Below are positions 1 to 5,898 of a stretch of 5,898 bases of DNA, one piece after another (position 1 is the stretch's first letter; each line of letters opens with the position of its first letter). Location: IMG/VR virus record IMGVR_UViG_3300029384_000086, positions 1 to 5,898 of that record; one strand, 5' to 3'. The DNA comes from a virus. The position numbers and the translations under genes were made by a program. Below the pieces are notes generated by a model that was not told the origin of the DNA, searched no databases, and saw only the letters and a program-made list of their open reading frames with translations.

Positions 1-1148
1 ACGATGATGACGCAGATTACTACGACAGAGGCCCAGACGAACAGGAACTCTTAATGAACGCAAGACTGGGAGGGCAATGCTTACCGGTAAATAAATTCCA
101 CGACTACTTCACAAGTTGCCTGCCGTCTCCTCAGCGAGGGCCGGAAGTGACGATCGCTCTGACAGGAAATGCACCTGTAAGGCCATACAGCGATACAAAA
201 CTAGAAAACATAAGCAGAGGAGGAGAAGTAAACTACTTAAATGGAATTAACAGCGCAACAGCAGGGATTCAGCTAATAGGTGGAGCAGGAGGCGAAGGAA
301 ACCCGGTAAAACTAGGCGTAAACGAAAACAACGATAATCTAAATGAGAGCAGTGCAGCATACCTAGGCGCAGACCTTAGCAACATCGAAGCAGCAACAAT
401 CAACCAGTTGAGACAGGCTTTTGCAGTTCAGCACTACTACGAAGCACTGGCACGTGGCGGCAGTCGATACCGTGAACAGGTAAGAACACTTTTTGGCGTA
501 ACCATCAGCGATAAAACCGCACAGATCCCGGAGTATCTGGGTGGTGGGCGCTATCACGTCAACATTAACCAAATCATACAGACAAGCGGACAGCAGACCG
601 ATGCAGACACGCCTATTGGCGAAACCGGTGCAATGTCTGTAACACCTATCAACGAAAGTTCTTTTACCAAGAGCTTTGAAGAGCACGGATTCATTATCGG
701 TGTGCTATGCGTTCGCCATAATCGAAGCTATCAGCAAGGTTTGGAGCGATTCTGGAGCCGCACTGACAGACTGGACTACTATTTCCCGCAGTTTGCAAAT
801 CTTGGCGAACAGCCTGTCAAGAAAAAGGAAATCAAATTAACCGGAACGGCAACGGACGATGAAACGTTCGGCTACCAGGAAGCATGGGCCGACTATCGAA
901 TGAAACCGAACCGGGTAAGCGGTAAAATGCGGAGCAATGCAGAAGGAACACTCGACTTCTGGCACTATGCAGACAACTACAAAGAAGTACCTACACTAAG
1001 TTCGAGCTGGATGAGCGAAGGAAAAGCCGAAATCGCACGAACGCTCATCGTAGAAAATGAGCCTCAGTTCTTCGGTGCAATCCGAGTAATGAACAAAACA
1101 ACGCGCTGCATGCCGCTGTATAGTGTACCGGGGCTGGAAAAACTGTAA
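1..1148 (+). CDS. VP1: Major capsid protein VP1, C-terminal part. This is the continuation of the CDS starting at 5249 across the circular junction; positions 1-118 duplicate 5781-5898. The full protein is about 559 aa.
   Basis: Read by hand, the frame from 5249 runs in-frame into the 54..1148 track ORF (…DDDDADYYDRGPDEQELLMNARLGG…). Size and composition fit Microviridae/Gokushovirinae major capsid proteins. The stop TAA is at 1146-1148. Confidence 0.88.
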   Translation, partial: DDDADYYDRGPDEQELLMNARLGGQCLPVNKFHDYFTSCLPSPQRGPEVTIALTGNAPVRPYSDTKLENISRGGEVNYLNGINSATAGIQLIGGAGGEGNPVKLGVNENNDNLNESSAAYLGADLSNIEAATINQLRQAFAVQHYYEALARGGSRYREQVRTLFGVTISDKTAQIPEYLGGGRYHVNINQIIQTSGQQTDADTPIGETGAMSVTPINESSFTKSFEEHGFIIGVLCVRHNRSYQQGLERFWSRTDRLDYYFPQFANLGEQPVKKKEIKLTGTATDDETFGYQEAWADYRMKPNRVSGKMRSNAEGTLDFWHYADNYKEVPTLSSSWMSEGKAEIARTLIVENEPQFFGAIRVMNKTTRCMPLYSVPGLEKL

Positions 1149-2054: not shown

Positions 2055-3074
2055 ATGAGTTGTTACAAGCCATTAATAAGGCTGTACAACCCGGATGATA
2101 GAGAACAGAGCGGACGGGTGTACTCACTCGCCCGCTTTTCTCAGCTAAGCGGGAAACAGCTAAAATATGAAGATTTGATGTATAATCCGAAAGTTATGTT
2201 AATACCATGCGGACAATGCATCGGATGCAGAATCAGGCAACGAGAGGACTGGACAACACGAATCGAGCTAGAAGCAAGAAATTACCCAAAAGAACAGGTA
2301 TGGTTTATCACACTAACTTATGATGACGACCATGTACCAGGCATGATAATAAAAACAGGTGAAATCATGCGAAAAGTACAATACACGTGGAAGCCGGGAG
2401 AGAAGCGTCCAGAAAGCGTCCAAATTCTAATGTATGAAGATATTCAAAAGTTCTTAAAACGTCTCAGAAAGGCTTACAGGGGCAAATTACGCTATTTTGT
2501 AGCGGGTGAATACGGAGAGCAAACGGCAAGGCCACACTATCACATGATACTATACGGTTGGGAACCGACAGACTTAGAAAATCTATACAAAATCCATCAC
2601 AACGGGTACTACAACAGCAAATGGCTAGCAGATCTGTGGGGAATGGGTCAGATACAGATAGCACAAGCAGTTCCAGAGACCTACAGATATGTTGCGGGAT
2701 ACGTTACAAAAAAAATGTACGAACTAGACGGAAAGAAAGCCAATGCATACTACGAGTTAGGGCAAACAAAACCTTTTGCTTGCATGAGCTTAAAGCCAGG
2801 ACTCGGAGACCAATATTACCAAGAACACAAAGAAGAGATATGGAGACAGGGATACATTCAATGCACCAACGGAAAACAAGCGCAGATTCCAAGATACTAC
2901 GAAAAGCAAATGGAAGCAGAAAACCCACAAAGATTGTGGAGAGTCAAACAGAACCGGCAGAAAAACGCAATCGAACAGAAGCGCCTACAGCTAGAGAACC
3001 AGGACTATAAGACAGTCCTAGAAACAAAAGAACGTGTCACCAAAAAACAAACGAAGAAGCGTGGAATTCTATAA
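2055..3074 (+). CDS. VP4: Replication initiation protein VP4, a rolling-circle HUH endonuclease (339 aa).
   Basis: Conserved gokushovirus VP4 motifs: Cys cluster PCGQCIGCR, RCR motif 1 FITLTY, motif 2 RPHYHMILYG (HuH), motif 3 YVAGYVTKK (catalytic Tyr). SD AGGTGA lies about 10 nt upstream of the ATG. Confidence 0.9.
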   Translation: MSCYKPLIRLYNPDDREQSGRVYSLARFSQLSGKQLKYEDLMYNPKVMLIPCGQCIGCRIRQREDWTTRIELEARNYPKEQVWFITLTYDDDHVPGMIIKTGEIMRKVQYTWKPGEKRPESVQILMYEDIQKFLKRLRKAYRGKLRYFVAGEYGEQTARPHYHMILYGWEPTDLENLYKIHHNGYYNSKWLADLWGMGQIQIAQAVPETYRYVAGYVTKKMYELDGKKANAYYELGQTKPFACMSLKPGLGDQYYQEHKEEIWRQGYIQCTNGKQAQIPRYYEKQMEAENPQRLWRVKQNRQKNAIEQKRLQLENQDYKTVLETKERVTKKQTKKRGIL

Positions 3075-3086
3075 TTGGTGTCACCT

Positions 3087-3123
3087 AGCCCAGTACCTAT
3101 CAAGTAGAGTACTGGGCTTTATT
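3087..3123 (+). terminator. Terminator-like hairpin after VP4: AGCCCAGTAC / GTACTGGGCT (10-bp perfect stem, 12-nt loop with inner CTA/TAG pairing) followed by TTATT.
   Basis: The inverted repeat was read directly. It begins 13 nt after the VP4 stop and is followed by a T-rich tract that runs into the iteron block. Confidence 0.5.
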
Positions 3124-3166
3124 AGTCTAAATTAGTCTAATCGATTAGTCTAAATTAGTCTAATCG
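3121..3166 (+). repeat. Four direct copies of ATTAGTCTAA, arranged as a perfect tandem duplication of the 23-bp unit ATTAGTCTAAATTAGTCTAATCG. Each 10-mer is itself a near-palindrome (TTAG-T-CTAA).
   Basis: Copies at 3121-3130, 3131-3140, 3144-3153 and 3154-3163. The 23-mer units are 3121-3143 and 3144-3166. Confidence 0.85.
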
Positions 3167-3220
3167 CGCACACACGTACGCGCGGAAATGCACGCGCACG
3201 CGTGCGCACGTATTATAATA
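3165..3220 (+). promoter_or_regulatory. GC-rich palindrome island abutting an AT-rich tract; candidate (+)-strand replication origin or Rep recognition region.
   Basis: Hairpin CGCGC-(acacacgtac)-GCGCG at 3165-3184. Perfect 14-bp palindrome GCGCACGCGTGCGC at 3194-3207. Motifs GCGCAC (x3) and CACGTA (x2). Immediately followed by TATTATAATATAAC (3211-3224). This is about 70% GC inside an AT-rich genome. Confidence 0.45.
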
Positions 3221-3248
3221 TAACTTGTTGTAGTCGTAGTAGTAGGGT

Positions 3249-3415
3249 ATGTTGAAAAGTTGAAAACTATAATTTTAAAACGTTAGAGCGTTAAAATAAG
3301 CAAAAAACAATGTTGAAAACTTTGTTGAAAACTTGTTGAAATGTTGAAACACTCTGTTGTGCTAAAGTTTAACAATGTTGAAATGTTGAAAACTATGTTG
3401 AAAATGTTGAAAACT
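3249..3415 (+). repeat. Array of 10 direct repeats, core TTGAAA, mostly (A)TGTTGAAAA(C), in three clusters spaced 8-12 bp apart (iteron-like phased A-tracts).
   Basis: TTGAAA cores start at 3252, 3260, 3313, 3325, 3336, 3344, 3378, 3386, 3398 and 3406. No ORF is possible because stops occur in all frames. Confidence 0.85.
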
Positions 3416-3450
3416 CAAATAGAAGCAGTCCGGAATCGAACGGGAAAGTC

Positions 3451-3501
3451 TCGGCCGCGCTTCGCTGGAAGTTGCGCCGCGTAGCGCGCAACGGCGGCCA
3501 T
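3451..3501 (+). other. GC-rich compound hairpin: outer stem GGCCGC/GCGGCC (3453-3458 pairs with 3494-3499) enclosing inner stem GTTGCGC/GCGCAAC (3471-3477 pairs with 3486-3492). Candidate complementary-strand origin or structured ssDNA signal.
   Basis: Inverted repeats were read directly. The element sits about 30-75 nt upstream of the consensus promoter in the intergenic region. Confidence 0.45.
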
Positions 3502-3503
3502 CT

Positions 3504-3562
3504 AATGAAAAATTCTGCAGAAGACTTGACAATTGTAAAGAAATGTGGTACAATAGAGTCAG
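3504..3562 (+). promoter_or_regulatory. Consensus sigma70-type promoter with an A-rich UP-like tract (AATGAAAAATT), -35 TTGACA (3526-3531), a 17-bp spacer, and an extended -10 TGgTACAAT (3546-3554). Predicted TSS is near 3561.
   Basis: Exact TTGACA, a 17-nt spacer (counted) and TACAAT preceded by TGg. The 8-bp palindrome ACAATTGT overlaps the -35/spacer and could be an operator. Confidence 0.7.
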
Positions 3563-3582: not shown

Positions 3583-3759
3583 ATGTACGAATACACCGAA
3601 AATAAAAAGGTAAAATGGTACAAGTCGCCCATTGACAACAGCATAAGGTTCCCTTATACTTACAACAAGAAGATGAAGTGTTGGGATAACCGGACATGCC
3701 AACTGTCAAGACAAAGAATCCACCAGCTAGAAAAAGAAAACAAAATAATGTGGATGTAA
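3583..3759 (+). CDS. Hypothetical small protein (58 aa), first ORF downstream of the consensus promoter.
   Basis: The ATG at 3583 is preceded by GAGAGG (about 9 nt upstream) and lies 20-25 nt downstream of the predicted TSS. The longer 3472 start in the track lies upstream of the promoter, inside the GC hairpin. I recognise no similarity. Confidence 0.4.
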   Translation: MYEYTENKKVKWYKSPIDNSIRFPYTYNKKMKCWDNRTCQLSRQRIHQLEKENKIMWM

Positions 3760-3774
3760 CGAAAGGAAACCAAC

Positions 3775-4158
3775 ATGAAAGATATTCTATACGTCAAAGC
3801 AGACCACGGACATCTAAGCGAGCACTTTAAAGCAAAAGAGTTCCAGTGCAAAGACAAAACAGAAGGACTGCTAATAGCAAAAGAACTTCTGGAGATACTG
3901 GAAAAAATCCGAAACCACTTCAACGCACCAGTCATCATCAACAGCGGATACCGTACGCCGAGCTGGAATGCAAAAGTAAACGGAGCATCAAACAGCTACC
4001 ACTGCAAAGGGATGGCGGCAGATATCGTAGTAAAAGGACACAGCAGCAGAGAAGTCGCAAAATACGCGAATAGCATCATGGAGCAAGGCGGCGTAATCAA
4101 ATACACGAATTTCACACACGTTGATGTGCGCGAAGAGCGATACAGAAAGGGGGTGTAG
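3775..4158 (+). CDS. Peptidase_M15_3 family zinc D-Ala-D-Ala carboxypeptidase-like peptidoglycan hydrolase (127 aa); putative lysis enzyme.
   Basis: Family signature H…EF.C.D…, INSGYRTPSWNAKVNGASNSYHCKGMAADI, FTHVDVR, with H/D/H zinc ligands. SD AAAGGAAA lies about 7 nt upstream. No signal peptide or TM segment. Confidence 0.85.
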   Translation: MKDILYVKADHGHLSEHFKAKEFQCKDKTEGLLIAKELLEILEKIRNHFNAPVIINSGYRTPSWNAKVNGASNSYHCKGMAADIVVKGHSSREVAKYANSIMEQGGVIKYTNFTHVDVREERYRKGV

Positions 4159-4161
4159 CCA

Positions 4162-4266
4162 ATGGCATTGATTAAGATTAAAGACTTACGAGAAGCAATC
4201 CAGCTGATTAAAAACGTCCTCGAAAAGCTAGACGAGATTTACCACATTCTGAAAGAAAGGGAGTAA
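4162..4266 (+). CDS. Hypothetical 34-aa protein (MALIKIKDLREAIQLIKNVLEKLDEIYHILKERE), an amphipathic helix.
   Basis: Strong SD AAGGGGG lies 8 nt upstream of the ATG. The ORF starts 4 nt after the peptidase stop and ends 4 nt before the next ORF, which looks like translational coupling. It was below the ORF-track length cutoff and I translated it by hand. Confidence 0.35.
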   Translation: MALIKIKDLREAIQLIKNVLEKLDEIYHILKERE

Positions 4267-4269
4267 AGC

Positions 4270-4515
4270 ATGATGAACAAAACATGGAATGTACGAGACC
4301 AGACCGAAGAAGCACTCAGGCTAGAAGCCGAAAGGCTATACAAGCAGATAGCAACCGGATACAAAACAATCAAAAAAGTTTCGGATATAGAAGACGCAAA
4401 AAAGCTCATGGACCAAATCTGGGTTATGAAGAAATGGGCTAACGACATCGAAATGGAACTGATTAGAAGGGAGTACACATATGAAGCACAGGCAGCGGAT
4501 GCCGGCACGTACTGA
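4270..4515 (+). CDS. Hypothetical 81-aa acidic, helical protein.
   Basis: SD AAGGGAG lies 8 nt upstream of the ATG. Tight packing with the upstream ORFs. I recognise no family. Confidence 0.55.
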   Translation: MMNKTWNVRDQTEEALRLEAERLYKQIATGYKTIKKVSDIEDAKKLMDQIWVMKKWANDIEMELIRREYTYEAQAADAGTY

Positions 4516-4613
4516 CAAGCGAATGTTCAACGTAACGGCACGAAAAACGAAGAGTATCAACATCAGCCAGAAACCCATGCGGGGCGGCATCAGACTGTAA
4601 AGGAGAAAAAAAC

Positions 4614-4856
4614 ATGATTCATGGATACTATGGCATCTACGACAGCGTAGCAAAATGTTACTGCTACATCGGAGAAAGCAAGAGCAACGAAACCTTTGCA
4701 CGAATGTGCAATATCATGGCAAAGGACGAGAAGACGTTCCTGGGCCAGTCGCCCGAAGACTACAAGGGCTACCATGTCGCAAACTTCAACGATGAAACCG
4801 GCAGCTTCGACAGCATCGAGCCGGACAAGGTCTGGGAGGGCAAGCCGCATGAATAA
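4614..4856 (+). CDS. VP5: VP5-like small protein (80 aa), gokushovirus DNA-binding/packaging protein family.
   Basis: SD AAGGAG lies 9 nt upstream. The pattern …YGIYDSVAK.Y…FARM…SPEDYKGYHVANFNDETGSF… matches the conserved PEDY/F…G.FD..TG signature of gokushovirus VP5 proteins as I recall it. Its position immediately upstream of VP3-VP1 is canonical. Confidence 0.7.
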   Translation: MIHGYYGIYDSVAKCYCYIGESKSNETFARMCNIMAKDEKTFLGQSPEDYKGYHVANFNDETGSFDSIEPDKVWEGKPHE

Positions 4857-5262
4857 ACGATACGAGGAAGGGCGAAAGCCCTTCTTTTCAGATCCGGGCG
4901 AAAAAATGCGTAAACAGTACGTCTTGGGTAAGGACGAAAAAGGCAACAAAAAACTGATGGAGAAGGAGCCAATCGACATTCAAGCCGAAATTGAAAGCTA
5001 CGCAGACGAATGCGACATCAAAAATATTGTCCGCAGAGCAAGCTTTGATCCTCAATTCGCAAAAAGTCTGGTAGACAGCGCAGAAACGGACGAAATCGTA
5101 GATATCACCGAATGGCCGACAAACATTCACGAATATAAGGCCATGATGGCAACGGCACAAGCTGCAGCAAGAGAAATCCAACGAATCCAGAAAAAAGTTG
5201 CAGAAGTACCTGTAGAAGTACCTGTAAAAAAGGAGAAGAACAAGAACAATGAACCGGAATAA
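4849..5262 (+). CDS. VP3: VP3-like internal scaffolding protein (137 aa).
   Basis: The ATG at 4849 is preceded by GGGAGGG (8 nt) and overlaps the VP5 stop (ATGAATAA). Acidic, helical protein of VP3-like size, placed immediately upstream of VP1 as in gokushoviruses. The longer 4696 start in the track would overlap VP5 and has no RBS. Confidence 0.6.
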   Translation: MNKRYEEGRKPFFSDPGEKMRKQYVLGKDEKGNKKLMEKEPIDIQAEIESYADECDIKNIVRRASFDPQFAKSLVDSAETDEIVDITEWPTNIHEYKAMMATAQAAAREIQRIQKKVAEVPVEVPVKKEKNKNNEPE

Positions 5263-5898
5263 TGAGCGGCACTTCAATCAAGTACCAGAAACACACGTCA
5301 GCCGAACACGCTTCAATCGAGACCAAACTATTCTCACAACATTCGATGCGGGAAAACTTATCCCATTTTACGTTGATGAGGTTCTTCCGGGCGACACTTT
5401 CAGCGTGGACACGGCGGCAATCATCCGAATGACAACGCCGAAATATCCAGTAATGGACGATGCATATATCGACATCTATTACTTCTATTGTCCGAACAAA
5501 ATTATTTGGGAAAACTTCAAGCGATTCATGGGAGAAGCAGACGAAATCCCGTGGATGCCGGAAAAAACATATCGAGTACCCAAAATAATCGTAGAAGGAA
5601 ATTCGAGTGATGAAAACAAGAGAGGGCCAAAAGAAGGAAGCATCCTCGACTACATGGGAATACCGACAAAGGTAGAAGGAAGAATCGAGATCAACGCGCT
5701 ACCGGTCAGAGCATATGTAAAAATTTGGAACGAATATTTTCGAGACCAAAATGTAGACAATCCGGCGGTATTCTTAACGGACGATGATGACGCAGATTAC
5801 TACGACAGAGGCCCAGACGAACAGGAACTCTTAATGAACGCAAGACTGGGAGGGCAATGCTTACCGGTAAATAAATTCCACGACTACTTCACAAGTTG
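5249..5898 (+). CDS. VP1: Major capsid protein VP1, N-terminal part (MNRNNERHFNQVPETHVSRTRFNRDQ…). It is open to the window end and continues at position 1.
   Basis: The ATG at 5249 follows AAGGAG. By hand translation the frame is continuous through 5898 and into 1..1148. Confidence 0.88.
   Translation, partial: MNRNNERHFNQVPETHVSRTRFNRDQTILTTFDAGKLIPFYVDEVLPGDTFSVDTAAIIRMTTPKYPVMDDAYIDIYYFYCPNKIIWENFKRFMGEADEIPWMPEKTYRVPKIIVEGNSSDENKRGPKEGSILDYMGIPTKVEGRIEINALPVRAYVKIWNEYFRDQNVDNPAVFLTDDDDADYYDRGPDEQELLMNARLGGQCLPVNKFHDYFTS
5781..5898. repeat. Terminal redundancy: 118 bp identical to positions 1-118. This is a circular-genome assembly overlap; the unit genome is 5,780 bp.
   Basis: Direct string identity, 5781-5898 = 1-118, checked at both ends. 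Confidence 0.95.

What the first reader, a model, noticed from the sequence alone, without database searches (positions are those of the whole stretch)
3583..4613. Promoter-driven accessory cassette between VP4 and VP5: M15_3 peptidoglycan peptidase plus three or four tiny ORFs, with no holin or signal peptide
Canonical gokushoviruses have only VP1-VP5 and no recognisable lysis genes. Here a consensus promoter drives a translationally coupled string: a 58-aa ORF, a Peptidase_M15_3 zinc peptidase (127 aa), a 34-aa amphipathic ORF and an 81-aa acidic ORF.

None of these ORFs, nor VP5, has a hydrophobic transmembrane stretch, and the peptidase has no signal sequence. How a cytoplasmic murein peptidase reaches the cell wall is therefore open. 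Options include an unrecognised non-canonical partner among the small ORFs, or a role at entry as a virion-associated enzyme rather than at exit.

M15_3 peptidases have been noted sporadically in metagenomic Microviridae. The accompanying small ORFs and their possible function as a minimal lysis module, or as an anti-defence module, are undescribed as far as I know.
Basis: partly seen in the sequence, partly recalled or inferred. Interest (0 to 1): 0.72.

Follow-up and report, generated by a model that had tools for sequence, protein, structure and literature searches.

The report
Known gokushovirus wall peptidase, no holin
This small gut ssDNA phage carries a cell-wall-cutting enzyme of a kind reported in such phages since 2012, and the tiny genes beside it are ordinary backbone genes of the lineage, not partners of the enzyme; how the enzyme reaches the wall with no membrane-hole protein is still unexplained.

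Summary
The 127-aa protein is a bona fide Peptidase_M15_3 with its zinc ligands intact. No plus-strand frame encodes a transmembrane or signal segment. About 95 related genomes show no conserved overprinted gene either.

The "cassette" reading does not hold.
- The promoter is the only strong plus-strand promoter in the genome. It sits at the same place in most relatives that lack the peptidase.
- ORF34, ORF81 and an overlooked basic ORF39 are conserved, purifying-selected backbone genes. They also occur, in the same order, in relatives with no peptidase.
- ORF58 is one of several alternative small genes in a hypervariable slot after VP4. It is present in about 9 of 95 genomes.

The peptidase is mobile and dispensable: relatives 82-95% identical in backbone proteins lack both the peptidase and any membrane ORF. 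Its nearest non-viral homologues are Clostridia prophage endolysins, several with an adjacent holin-like ORF.

M15_3 peptidases in gut gokushoviruses were published in 2012 and are annotated in GenBank.

Verdict: a new member of a known kind. The unsolved route to the wall is real but applies to the whole lineage.

The parts
3087..3118 (+). Perfect 10-bp hairpin followed by TTTATT, 13 nt after the VP4 stop. Probably the terminator that closes the single transcription unit; a replication-origin stem-loop is not excluded.
   Evidence: Inverted repeat I4. The core CCAGTAC-N8-16-GTACTGG occurs once per genome, on the plus strand, in 64 fetched loci. In the loci checked (L002, L003, L004, L005) it lies just after VP4.
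3121..3500 (.). Repeat-rich noncoding region: a 23-nt exact tandem x2, a block of alternating purine/pyrimidine GC, about 11 copies of TGTTGAAA, and a GC-rich block.
   Evidence: Positions 3165-3428 are 80-83% identical to noncoding DNA of otherwise dissimilar gokushoviruses (H17-H23). No Rfam family matched.
3526..3554 (+). Main sigma-70-type promoter with an extended -10 (TTGACA-17-TG-TACAAT).
   Evidence: 11 of 12 matches. An equivalent site lies upstream of the peptidase, or of ORF58 plus peptidase, in 34 of 46 relatives. It also lies in the VP4-to-ORF81 interval of 5 of 7 peptidase-less relatives.
3632..3660 (+). Second promoter-like site (TTGACA-17-TATACT), inside ORF58.
   Evidence: It is present in the ORF58-bearing relatives L008, L016, L018 and L025. 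This cannot be separated from coding conservation.
3583..3759 (+). ORF58: a basic 58-aa accessory protein of unknown function. It is sporadic in the lineage.
   Evidence: 22 protein clusters, those with long contigs being microvirus-sized. Found in about 9 of 95 genomes. dN/dS 0.11. AlphaFold2 pLDDT 70, three strands plus a helix, with no fold match. No Pfam, PHROG or NCBIfam hit.
3775..4158 (+). Single-domain Peptidase_M15_3 zinc peptidase of the endolysin type. It has no signal peptide.
   Evidence: PF08291 E 6e-25. phrog_894 endolysin 5e-37. H76, D83, H115 and S57-G58-Y59-R60 are invariant in 11 diverse microviral copies. The H and D ligands align to the Streptomyces albus zinc D-Ala-D-Ala carboxypeptidase 1lbu. 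It is 43-54% identical to homologues in Clostridia-class MAGs and genomes.
4162..4266 (+). ORF34: a 34-aa net-neutral amphipathic helix with heptad spacing. It is a lineage backbone microprotein.
   Evidence: Syntenic in most of the roughly 47 peptidase-bearing relatives, absent in three. A homologue with the LDKIYHA motif occurs in peptidase-less genomes. dN/dS 0.17. Hydrophobic moment up to 0.70, pI 6.6.
4270..4515 (+). ORF81: an 81-aa two-helix hairpin protein with an invariant N-terminal KTWNVRDQ-type motif. It is a backbone gene of unknown function.
   Evidence: 1179 protein clusters; the listed ones with long contigs are about 5-6 kb. Present at 38-49% identity in peptidase-less genomes. 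dN/dS 0.16. AlphaFold2 pLDDT 88, helices 13-36 and 40-78. Foldseek finds only its own uncharacterised Microviridae family.
4481..4600 (+). ORF39: a 39-aa strongly basic protein that overlaps the end of ORF81. Probably the small DNA-binding protein packaged with the genome (the counterpart of phiX174 J and Chlamydia-phage ORF8).
   Evidence: phrog_10695 E 1e-10, full length. pI 12.0, net charge +10.6. 51-97% identical in all relatives, including those without a peptidase. The functional analogy is from background knowledge and was not tested.
4614..4856 (+). VP5, the downstream boundary of the interval.
   Evidence: PF20577 Phage_ORF5 E 1.4e-12. phrog_1670 1.3e-17.

Best explanation
The interval 3583-4613 is not one cassette. 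It is three unrelated layers of a gokushovirus genome.

(1) The genome's principal promoter. It lies at the end of a 508-nt noncoding region. It probably starts one polycistronic transcript that runs through all genes to a conserved hairpin just after VP4.

(2) A hypervariable accessory slot after the noncoding region. In this genome it holds ORF58, a rare gene of unknown function. It also holds a horizontally acquired single-domain M15_3 zinc peptidase of the type that Clostridia phages use as an endolysin.

(3) Three backbone microproteins of this gut lineage: ORF34 (coiled-coil-like helix), ORF81 (helical hairpin) and ORF39 (basic, J/ORF8-like). They are present whether or not a peptidase is.

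Inferred mechanism. The peptidase accumulates in the cytoplasm. It cuts peptidoglycan peptide stems late in infection as an auxiliary endolysin. The lineage has its own, still unidentified, peptidase-independent exit mechanism, and the peptidase gains access to the wall only after that mechanism has damaged the membrane or wall.

Shown here: the anatomy, the conservation patterns, the intact catalytic residues, the absence of any encoded membrane protein, and the dispensability of the peptidase. Inferred: the enzyme's substrate, its timing, and how it gets across the membrane.
For: Identity of the peptidase:
- PF08291 and phrog_894 hits.
- Invariant H76/D83/H115 and SGYR.
- 1lbu alignment.

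Origin of the peptidase:
- The closest homologues outside microviruses, at 43-54% identity, are in MAGs binned to Lachnospiraceae, Christensenellaceae, Faecalibacterium and Ruminococcaceae, among others.
- At least five of these loci have an adjacent holin-like ORF with one to four predicted membrane segments: L115, L130, L119, L121 and L129.
- This agrees with Roux 2012 (PMC3394797).

Backbone status of the small ORFs:
- The order PEP-ORF34-ORF81-ORF39-VP5 is syntenic in about 45 relatives.
- ORF81, ORF39 and an ORF34-like gene are present in seven peptidase-less genomes.
- There are 1179 ORF81 clusters against 22 for ORF58.

The slot:
- The VP4-to-ORF81 span ranges from 572 to 1820 nt.
- It holds at least five alternative small gene families.

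The promoter:
- It is the only plus-strand site with 11 or more of 12 matches, and equivalent sites exist in genomes with and without the peptidase.

Dispensability of the peptidase:
- L031 and L033 carry it. MT135259 (L057) has no peptidase and no plus-strand membrane ORF.
- Their shared major proteins (VP1-VP5) are 80-95% identical.

No hidden partner:
- No plus-strand alternative frame stays open for more than 22 codons across 91-98 genomes.
Against: - No export route for the peptidase is identified, so the key step, access to the wall, is inference only.
- Dispensability rests on one near-isogenic comparison that uses a GenBank record flagged UNVERIFIED, plus a more distant peptidase-less clade.
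- 99 of 107 sampled relatives keep the peptidase. This argues that it matters more than 'auxiliary' suggests, although the sample is biased towards close relatives.
- The host is unknown. Similarity to Clostridia and the sigma-70 plus strong Shine-Dalgarno signals are indirect. Two related contigs are binned with Bacteroides and Prevotella MAGs.
Confidence: 0.6

Rival explanations
1. ORF58, the peptidase, ORF34 and ORF81 form a self-contained minimal lysis (or anti-defence) module. One of the small non-transmembrane proteins substitutes for a holin or escorts the peptidase across the membrane. A precedent is the chaperone Gp1 of mycobacteriophage Ms6 acting on LysA (from background knowledge).
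For: Tight spacing and shared Shine-Dalgarno signals. ORF34 is strongly amphipathic, with a hydrophobic moment up to 0.70. All the small ORFs are under purifying selection. No other candidate partner exists in the genome.
Against: - ORF34-like, ORF81 and ORF39 persist in the same order in seven genomes without the peptidase.
- ORF58 is present in only about 9 of 95 genomes.
- ORF34 is net-neutral with heptad spacing. That is typical of a soluble coiled coil, not of a cationic membrane-lytic peptide.
- The same tight spacing continues through VP5 and VP3 to VP1, so it does not mark out a module.
Confidence: 0.1
2. The peptidase never leaves the cytoplasm. It hydrolyses soluble or lipid-linked peptidoglycan precursors such as UDP-MurNAc-peptides or lipid II. 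Wall synthesis stops and growing cells burst. This would be an enzymatic counterpart of the single-gene lysis proteins of phiX174 and the ssRNA phages, and it needs no holin.
For: There is no signal sequence, no holin and no conserved overprinted gene. The gene is promoter-proximal, so it is expressed whenever the genome is transcribed. From background knowledge, the M15 clan includes cytoplasmic enzymes acting on precursors (VanX, VanY), and small-genome phages typically lyse by blocking wall synthesis.
Against: - The nearest homologues are same-sized prophage endolysins with an adjacent holin-like ORF. Those endolysins accumulate in the cytoplasm without causing early lysis.
- I found no microvirus-specific sequence change. 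The C-terminal YRKGV tail aligns with the SRWxG tail of the Clostridia enzymes.
- The peptidase is dispensable in a near-isogenic relative.
Confidence: 0.12
3. The peptidase is carried in or on the virion. It opens the wall locally during DNA entry, which would be useful if the host is a thick-walled Gram-positive bacterium.
For: Similarity to Clostridia enzymes suggests a Gram-positive host. No exit route is encoded.
Against: - The protein has no extension beyond the catalytic domain that could dock to a capsid. Its length and termini match the prophage endolysins.
- Relatives lacking it keep the same capsid and pilot proteins at 82-89% identity.
- From background knowledge, no microvirus is known to package an enzyme.
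Confidence: 0.08
4. A membrane protein is encoded after all, on the complementary strand, where many frames are hydrophobic. It acts as the holin.
For: All 21 strongest hydrophobic windows in the genome are in minus-strand frames. One antisense frame stays open for 57 codons across relatives, opposite VP2 codons 159-216.
Against: - The plus strand is 37.5% A and 18% T. Antisense frames are therefore T-rich, hydrophobic and poor in stop codons by composition alone.
- No minus-strand promoter exceeds 10 of 12 matches.
- From background knowledge, microviruses transcribe one strand. Roux 2012 notes a single possible exception.
Confidence: 0.03

Closest known systems
M15_3 peptidase genes of human-gut Gokushovirinae and Alpavirinae (Roux et al. 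2012, PMC3394797). GenBank records include KX513868, KX513877, the MG945xxx series, KT264791-93, Dulem viruses and chicken microvirus mg7_10.
   Same: The Pfam family, protein size (about 126-131 aa) and position between VP4 and VP5 are the same. These copies are 41-71% identical to the window protein. Their similarity to Firmicutes/Clostridia prophage enzymes is the same. An endolysin role has already been proposed for them.
   Different: This genome is only about 76% identical in nucleotides, over 66% of its length, to the closest GenBank record. It also carries the rare ORF58 upstream. The earlier papers did not separate backbone microproteins from slot genes, and did not test for overprinted holins.
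Holin-endolysin cassettes of Clostridia prophages with single-domain M15_3 endolysins (loci L115, L130, L119, L121, L129)
   Same: The catalytic domain is homologous at 43-54% identity, with the same length and the same C-terminal tail.
   Different: Those loci have an adjacent holin-like ORF with one to four predicted membrane segments. The microvirus has no membrane protein in any plus-strand frame.
Single-gene lysis of phiX174 (protein E, overprinted in gene D) and of the ssRNA phages
   Same: A minimal-genome phage with no holin-endolysin pair.
   Different: E and the Sgl proteins are small membrane proteins that inhibit wall synthesis. No such ORF, overprinted or free-standing, is conserved here.
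M15 metallopeptidases of isolated Occultatumvirinae roseophage and Rhizobium microviruses (PMC11499846), and the peptidase/amidase genes of microvirus Families 2, 7 and 14 (Kirchberger et al. 2022, PMC9239249)
   Same: An accessory peptidase presumed to act in lysis. It is absent from some subgroups, which the authors take to mean reliance on host or unidentified lysis genes.
   Different: The microvirus families and the gene position differ (VP1-peptidase-VP4 there). The acquisitions were probably independent.

Membership tests
Peptidase_M15_3 (PF08291; MEROPS clan MD zinc peptidases) | Profile match above the curated gathering score | tested here: met
   87.9 bits against a cut-off of 23.2, E 6e-25, residues 17-117 covering profile positions 2-108 of 108.
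Peptidase_M15_3 (PF08291; MEROPS clan MD zinc peptidases) | Zinc-ligand triad H-x6-D ... H, plus the SxxR substrate motif | tested here: met
   H76, D83, H115 and S57-G58-Y59-R60 are invariant in 11 diverse microviral copies. H76 and D83 align with the corresponding H-x6-D residues of 1lbu. Assigning these residues as zinc ligands is from background knowledge.
Peptidase_M15_3 (PF08291; MEROPS clan MD zinc peptidases) | Hydrolysis of a peptidoglycan peptide bond | not testable with these tools
   Needs a zymogram or a muropeptide assay.
Canonical holin-endolysin lysis cassette | A holin gene (small protein with at least one transmembrane helix) next to or elsewhere in the genome | tested here: not met
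   The highest Kyte-Doolittle 17-residue window in any plus-strand ORF is 1.49. No alternative frame stays open for more than 22 codons across 91-98 genomes.
Canonical holin-endolysin lysis cassette | Alternatively, a secretory signal or signal-anchor-release (SAR) domain on the endolysin | tested here: not met
   The most hydrophobic window in the peptidase scores 0.67. The N-terminus MKDILYVKADHGH is polar.
Single-gene lysis (phiX174 E-like amurin) | A small membrane protein, usually overprinted in another gene | tested here: not met
   The one hydrophobic-leaning overprinted ORF (676-840, inside VP1) is not conserved as an open frame across relatives.
Gokushovirinae genome | VP1 capsid, VP2 pilot, VP3 scaffold, VP4 replication initiator and VP5 on one strand of a circle of about 4.5-6 kb | tested here: met
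   PF02305, PF09675, PF23343 and PF20577. phrog_8742 pilot protein. 5780-nt circle. The best GenBank matches are classified as Gokushovirinae.
Small basic DNA-binding protein of microviruses (phiX174 J / Chlamydia-phage ORF8 type), for ORF39 | Very small, highly basic protein encoded next to the morphogenesis genes | tested here: inconclusive
   39 aa, pI 12, net charge +10.6. Full-length match to phrog_10695, which carries no functional label. Homology to J or ORF8 was not tested directly.

The most novel reading that the evidence does not exclude
This lineage lyses its host with a cytoplasmic, signal-less M15_3 peptidase and no membrane protein at all. This could work in one of two ways. The enzyme could destroy peptidoglycan precursors from inside the cell, as an enzymatic version of single-gene lysis. 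Alternatively, the conserved non-transmembrane helical microproteins ORF34 and ORF81 could form a new kind of membrane-breaching or export device that replaces a holin.
Probability: 0.1. Interest if true: 0.75.

Novelty: new member of a known kind. Interest (0 to 1): 0.3.

Why it matters
It matters little as a discovery. Peptidase-bearing gut gokushoviruses have been in the literature since 2012 and are annotated in GenBank.

The value is in the clarification.
- The small ORFs should not be pursued as peptidase partners. ORF34 and ORF81 are abundant, conserved, uncharacterised backbone proteins; ORF81 alone has 1179 clusters.
- The absence of a holin is now shown across about 95 genomes, including for overprinted frames. 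That sharpens a real open question about how gokushoviruses exit cells.
- Near-isogenic genomes with and without the peptidase offer a natural experiment for anyone able to rescue these genomes.

Tried and rejected
1. Function of ORF81 from structure. AlphaFold2 gave a confident two-helix hairpin. Foldseek against the PDB and BFVD returned only generic helical hairpins and the protein's own uncharacterised family.

2. Function of ORF58 from structure. The model had pLDDT 70 and no fold match.

3. Pfam, PHROG and NCBIfam scans of the small ORFs. Only ORF39 matched, to the unlabelled phrog_10695.

4. Host from prophages. A scan of GTDB genomes with the ORF81 profile found nothing. The peptidase scan returned microvirus-sized contigs binned with Bacteroides and Prevotella MAGs, which is weak evidence for a host.

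5. A hidden overprinted holin in the VP1 +1 frame (676-840). It is hydrophobic in some relatives, but the frame is not conserved as open. The hydrophobicity mirrors the hydrophobic VP1 segment it overlaps.

6. Antisense ORFs. The long open runs are explained by the T-poor plus strand.

7. A microvirus-specific C-terminal tail (YRKGV) on the peptidase. It is homologous to the tail of the Clostridia enzymes.

8. Searching IMG/VR with the 27- and 38-aa membrane mini-ORFs of peptidase-less relatives. Both queries were too short. tblastn against GenBank phage records found only 2-4 records.

9. Rfam search of the window. No credible hit.

10. My dN/dS value for ORF39 is invalid because of a frame error and is not used.
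Full report
**What the window is.** The 5898-nt window is a complete gokushovirus genome. Its ends repeat 118 nt exactly, so the circle is 5780 nt. All genes are on the plus strand:
- VP1 starts near 5249 and wraps round to 1148.
- VP2 is at 1188-2045 and VP4 at 2055-3074.
- A 508-nt noncoding region follows.
- Then come ORF58 (3583-3759), a peptidase (3775-4158), ORF34 (4162-4266), ORF81 (4270-4515), ORF39 (4481-4600), VP5 (4614-4856) and VP3 (to 5262).

These assignments rest. A protein identical to ORF81 was found on 11 contigs, and the four retrieved (two JGI samples, two ENA assemblies) share the window's gene order. The virus is therefore real and not an assembly artefact.

**Checking the observation.**
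- The 127-aa protein matches Peptidase_M15_3 (PF08291) at 87.9 bits against a cut-off of 23.2. It also matches the PHROG endolysin family phrog_894 at 5e-37.
- Across 11 diverse microviral copies, H76, D83 and H115 (the H-x6-D...H zinc motif) and the SGYR motif are invariant. The first two ligands align with the Streptomyces albus zinc D-Ala-D-Ala carboxypeptidase 1lbu.
- The two best promoter-like sites in the window are TTGACA-17-TG-TACAAT at 3526-3554 and TTGACA-17-TATACT at 3632-3660.
- The genes from the peptidase onward are separated by 3-15 nt or overlap, and each is preceded by an AGGAG/GGGAG-type ribosome-binding site.
- No plus-strand reading frame contains a transmembrane-like stretch. 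The many hydrophobic frames are all antisense, a by-product of a plus strand that is 37.5% A and 18% T.

**Is it a cassette? Comparative evidence.** I collected 45 IMG/VR relatives through the peptidase and 80 through an ORF81 profile. I added 12 GenBank genomes.
- The order peptidase-ORF34-ORF81-ORF39-VP5-VP3-VP1 is conserved in most peptidase-bearing relatives, about 45 genomes.
- Seven GenBank gokushoviruses carry ORF81 (38-49% identity), ORF39 and an ORF34 homologue with the conserved LDKIYHA motif, in the same order. They have no peptidase at all. They are PV067914, MG945657, KT264788, KT264789, MG945381, MG945138 and MT135259.
- ORF81 belongs to a family of 1179 protein clusters; the listed ones with long contigs are microvirus-sized. 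ORF58 has only 22 clusters and occurs in about 9 of 95 genomes.
- The stretch between VP4 and ORF81 varies from 572 to 1820 nt. Besides the peptidase, found in 90 of 95 genomes, it holds several alternative small gene families: a 60-aa family in 16 genomes, ORF58 in 9, a 59-aa family in 5, and rarer ones.
- Rough dN/dS values against the window are 0.11 for ORF58, 0.28 for the peptidase, 0.17 for ORF34 and 0.16 for ORF81. All are real genes.

The interval therefore combines a hypervariable accessory slot (ORF58 and the peptidase) with lineage backbone genes (ORF34, ORF81, ORF39).

**The promoter.** A near-consensus promoter with an extended -10 lies upstream of the peptidase, or of ORF58 plus the peptidase, in 34 of 46 relatives. 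In the window, the two adjacent sites before the peptidase are the only plus-strand matches of 11 or more out of 12. In 5 of the 7 peptidase-less genomes the single such site likewise lies in the VP4-to-ORF81 interval. A perfect hairpin followed by TTTATT sits just after VP4 (3087-3118). Its core is conserved, once per genome, in 64 loci. The simplest reading is one transcription unit that starts near 3560 and ends at this hairpin. The promoter is then the genome's main promoter, not a cassette promoter. This type of promoter, together with the strong Shine-Dalgarno sites, argues against a Bacteroidota host (inference from background knowledge).

**Where is the holin?** I built codon alignments of VP1, VP2, VP3, VP4, VP5, the peptidase and ORF81 from 91-98 genomes. 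I then asked whether either alternative plus-strand frame stays free of stop codons.
- Apart from the known gene overlaps, the longest conserved-open run is 22 codons. A conserved phiX174 E-like overprinted gene is therefore excluded.
- Antisense frames show open runs of up to 57 codons. This is expected from the base composition. No good minus-strand promoter exists.
- The closest homologues outside microviruses, at 43-54% identity, are in Clostridia-class MAGs and genomes (Lachnospiraceae, Christensenellaceae, Faecalibacterium, Ruminococcaceae).
- Several of these homologues are same-sized single-domain enzymes with an adjacent holin-like ORF carrying one to four predicted membrane segments. 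Roux et al. 2012 saw the same pattern.
- The invariant C-terminal YRKGV of the microviral enzymes aligns with the SRWxG tail of those enzymes. I found no microvirus-specific adaptation.

**The peptidase is mobile and dispensable.** L031 and L033 carry the peptidase. MT135259 (L057) does not. The proteins they share are highly similar: 92% identical in VP4, 82-83% in VP1, 88-89% in VP2, 85-95% in VP5 and 80-85% in VP3. MT135259 also has no plus-strand membrane ORF, and no known lysis enzyme occupies its slot. In L031 the peptidase is 68% identical to the window copy, while VP4 is 52% and VP5 31% identical. The peptidase is thus better conserved than the backbone. This fits the inter-lineage recombination of peptidase genes reported by Kirchberger et al. 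2022 (PMC9239249).

**Most likely mechanism.** The enzyme is an ordinary phage endolysin-type peptidase acquired from a Clostridia phage. It most probably helps to dissolve the wall at exit. Near-isogenic genomes do without it, and gokushoviruses in general have no identified lysis gene (PMC7062461). I therefore infer that the backbone has its own unidentified exit mechanism. The cytoplasmic peptidase would reach the wall only once that mechanism has compromised the membrane. This last step is inference. Rival readings are kept at low probability, with tests stated for each: a small-ORF partner, cytoplasmic attack on precursors, a virion-borne entry enzyme, and an antisense holin.

**Comparison with what is known.** Roux et al. 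2012 (PMC3394797) reported M15_3 peptidases in 5 gut Gokushovirinae and 6 Alpavirinae. They proposed an endolysin role, noted adjacent unknown ORFs and pointed to Firmicutes donors. Later work treats peptidases as among the few recurrent microviral accessory genes (PMC9239249, PMC11499846). It also lists PF08291 as an endolysin of 'dsDNA and some ssDNA viruses' (bioRxiv 10.1101/2022.02.15.480533). Many GenBank records annotate 'peptidase M15' at this position. The finding is a new member of a known kind.

**What this analysis adds.** Slot genes are separated from backbone microproteins. Overprinted holins are excluded across about 95 genomes. A natural pair of near-isogenic genomes with and without the peptidase is identified.

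**Things that led nowhere.** Structure prediction gave a confident helical hairpin for ORF81 and a weak strand-plus-helix model for ORF58, neither with an informative fold match. The scan for prophages of this lineage in GTDB genomes found nothing. The anti-defence idea could not be tested.

Noticed in passing
window 1-118 and 5781-5898: The two ends of the window are an exact 118-nt repeat, which is an assembly overlap of a circle. The true genome is 5780 nt, and VP1 runs across the junction.
   Followed up: yes
window 3121-3500: The noncoding region is packed with repeats: a 23-nt exact tandem x2 (four TTAGTCTAA units), a 50-nt block of alternating purine/pyrimidine GC, about 11 copies of TGTTGAAA(A), and a GC-rich block. 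Positions 3165-3428 are 80-83% identical to noncoding DNA of gokushoviruses that are otherwise too diverged to align (H17-H23). It may be a replication origin or a host-factor binding array. No Rfam hit.
   Followed up: partly
window 3087-3118; 64 loci: A perfect hairpin just after the VP4 stop has a core conserved exactly, once per genome. Terminator or rolling-circle origin stem-loop is unresolved.
   Followed up: partly
L051 4769-4885, L053 4756-4872, L054 4545-4661, L052 2265-2363; KT264790 5148-5261: Some peptidase-less relatives have a 32-38-aa gene between ORF39 and VP5 that is absent from the window. It encodes a clear transmembrane helix and a basic tail (MNVMIAVGAGATIITMCSAAFALITMSIDIIKNWRKSK). 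Its GTG start overlaps the ORF39 stop and its stop overlaps the VP5 start in an ATGA. It is a candidate small lysis or holin-like protein in the peptidase-free sister clade. Only 4 GenBank phage records carry it.
   Followed up: partly
L051 3804-3887, L052 1192-1275, L053 3690-3773, L054 3636-3719, L055 1188-1271, L056 1174-1257: A T-rich 27-codon ORF (MLNTMNFYPWNDIF.ILMLILLWITC) lies in the noncoding region of peptidase-less relatives. It has an AGGGAG ribosome-binding site and no indels across six genomes. It also contains a perfect DnaA-box complement (TGTGGATAA). Whether it is coding or an origin element is unresolved. The window has a stop after four codons at the homologous place.
   Followed up: partly
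L051 4330-4443, L053 4315-4425, L055 1793-1912 and others: The ORF34 homologue in peptidase-less genomes keeps the LDKIYHA motif but has no ATG start in frame. Initiation may be at a non-ATG codon, or the peptide may be made another way.
   Followed up: no
window 676-840 (+1 frame inside VP1): An overprinted 54-codon ORF has a hydrophobic N-terminal stretch and a basic tail, resembling phiX174 E. Similar ORFs appear in L014, L017, L018, L024 and L028. The frame is not conserved as open across the lineage, and its hydrophobicity mirrors the VP1 segment it overlaps.
   Followed up: yes
L112 (CAVKUS010000079.1) and L113 (CALBJK010000280.1): Two microvirus-sized contigs (5.7-5.8 kb) carrying close peptidase homologues (70% and 61% identity) are binned into a Bacteroides sp. 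CAG:545 genome and a Prevotella MAG. This is probably mis-binning and is not evidence for the host.
   Followed up: no
slot between VP4 and ORF81 in L002, L004, L052, L057, L075, L108: Other recurrent small accessory genes occupy the same slot. They include a 60-aa family (16 genomes), a 59-aa family (5 genomes), a 77-aa ORF, and a 61-aa ORF with two CxxC pairs that resembles a zinc ribbon. None has a known function.
   Followed up: no
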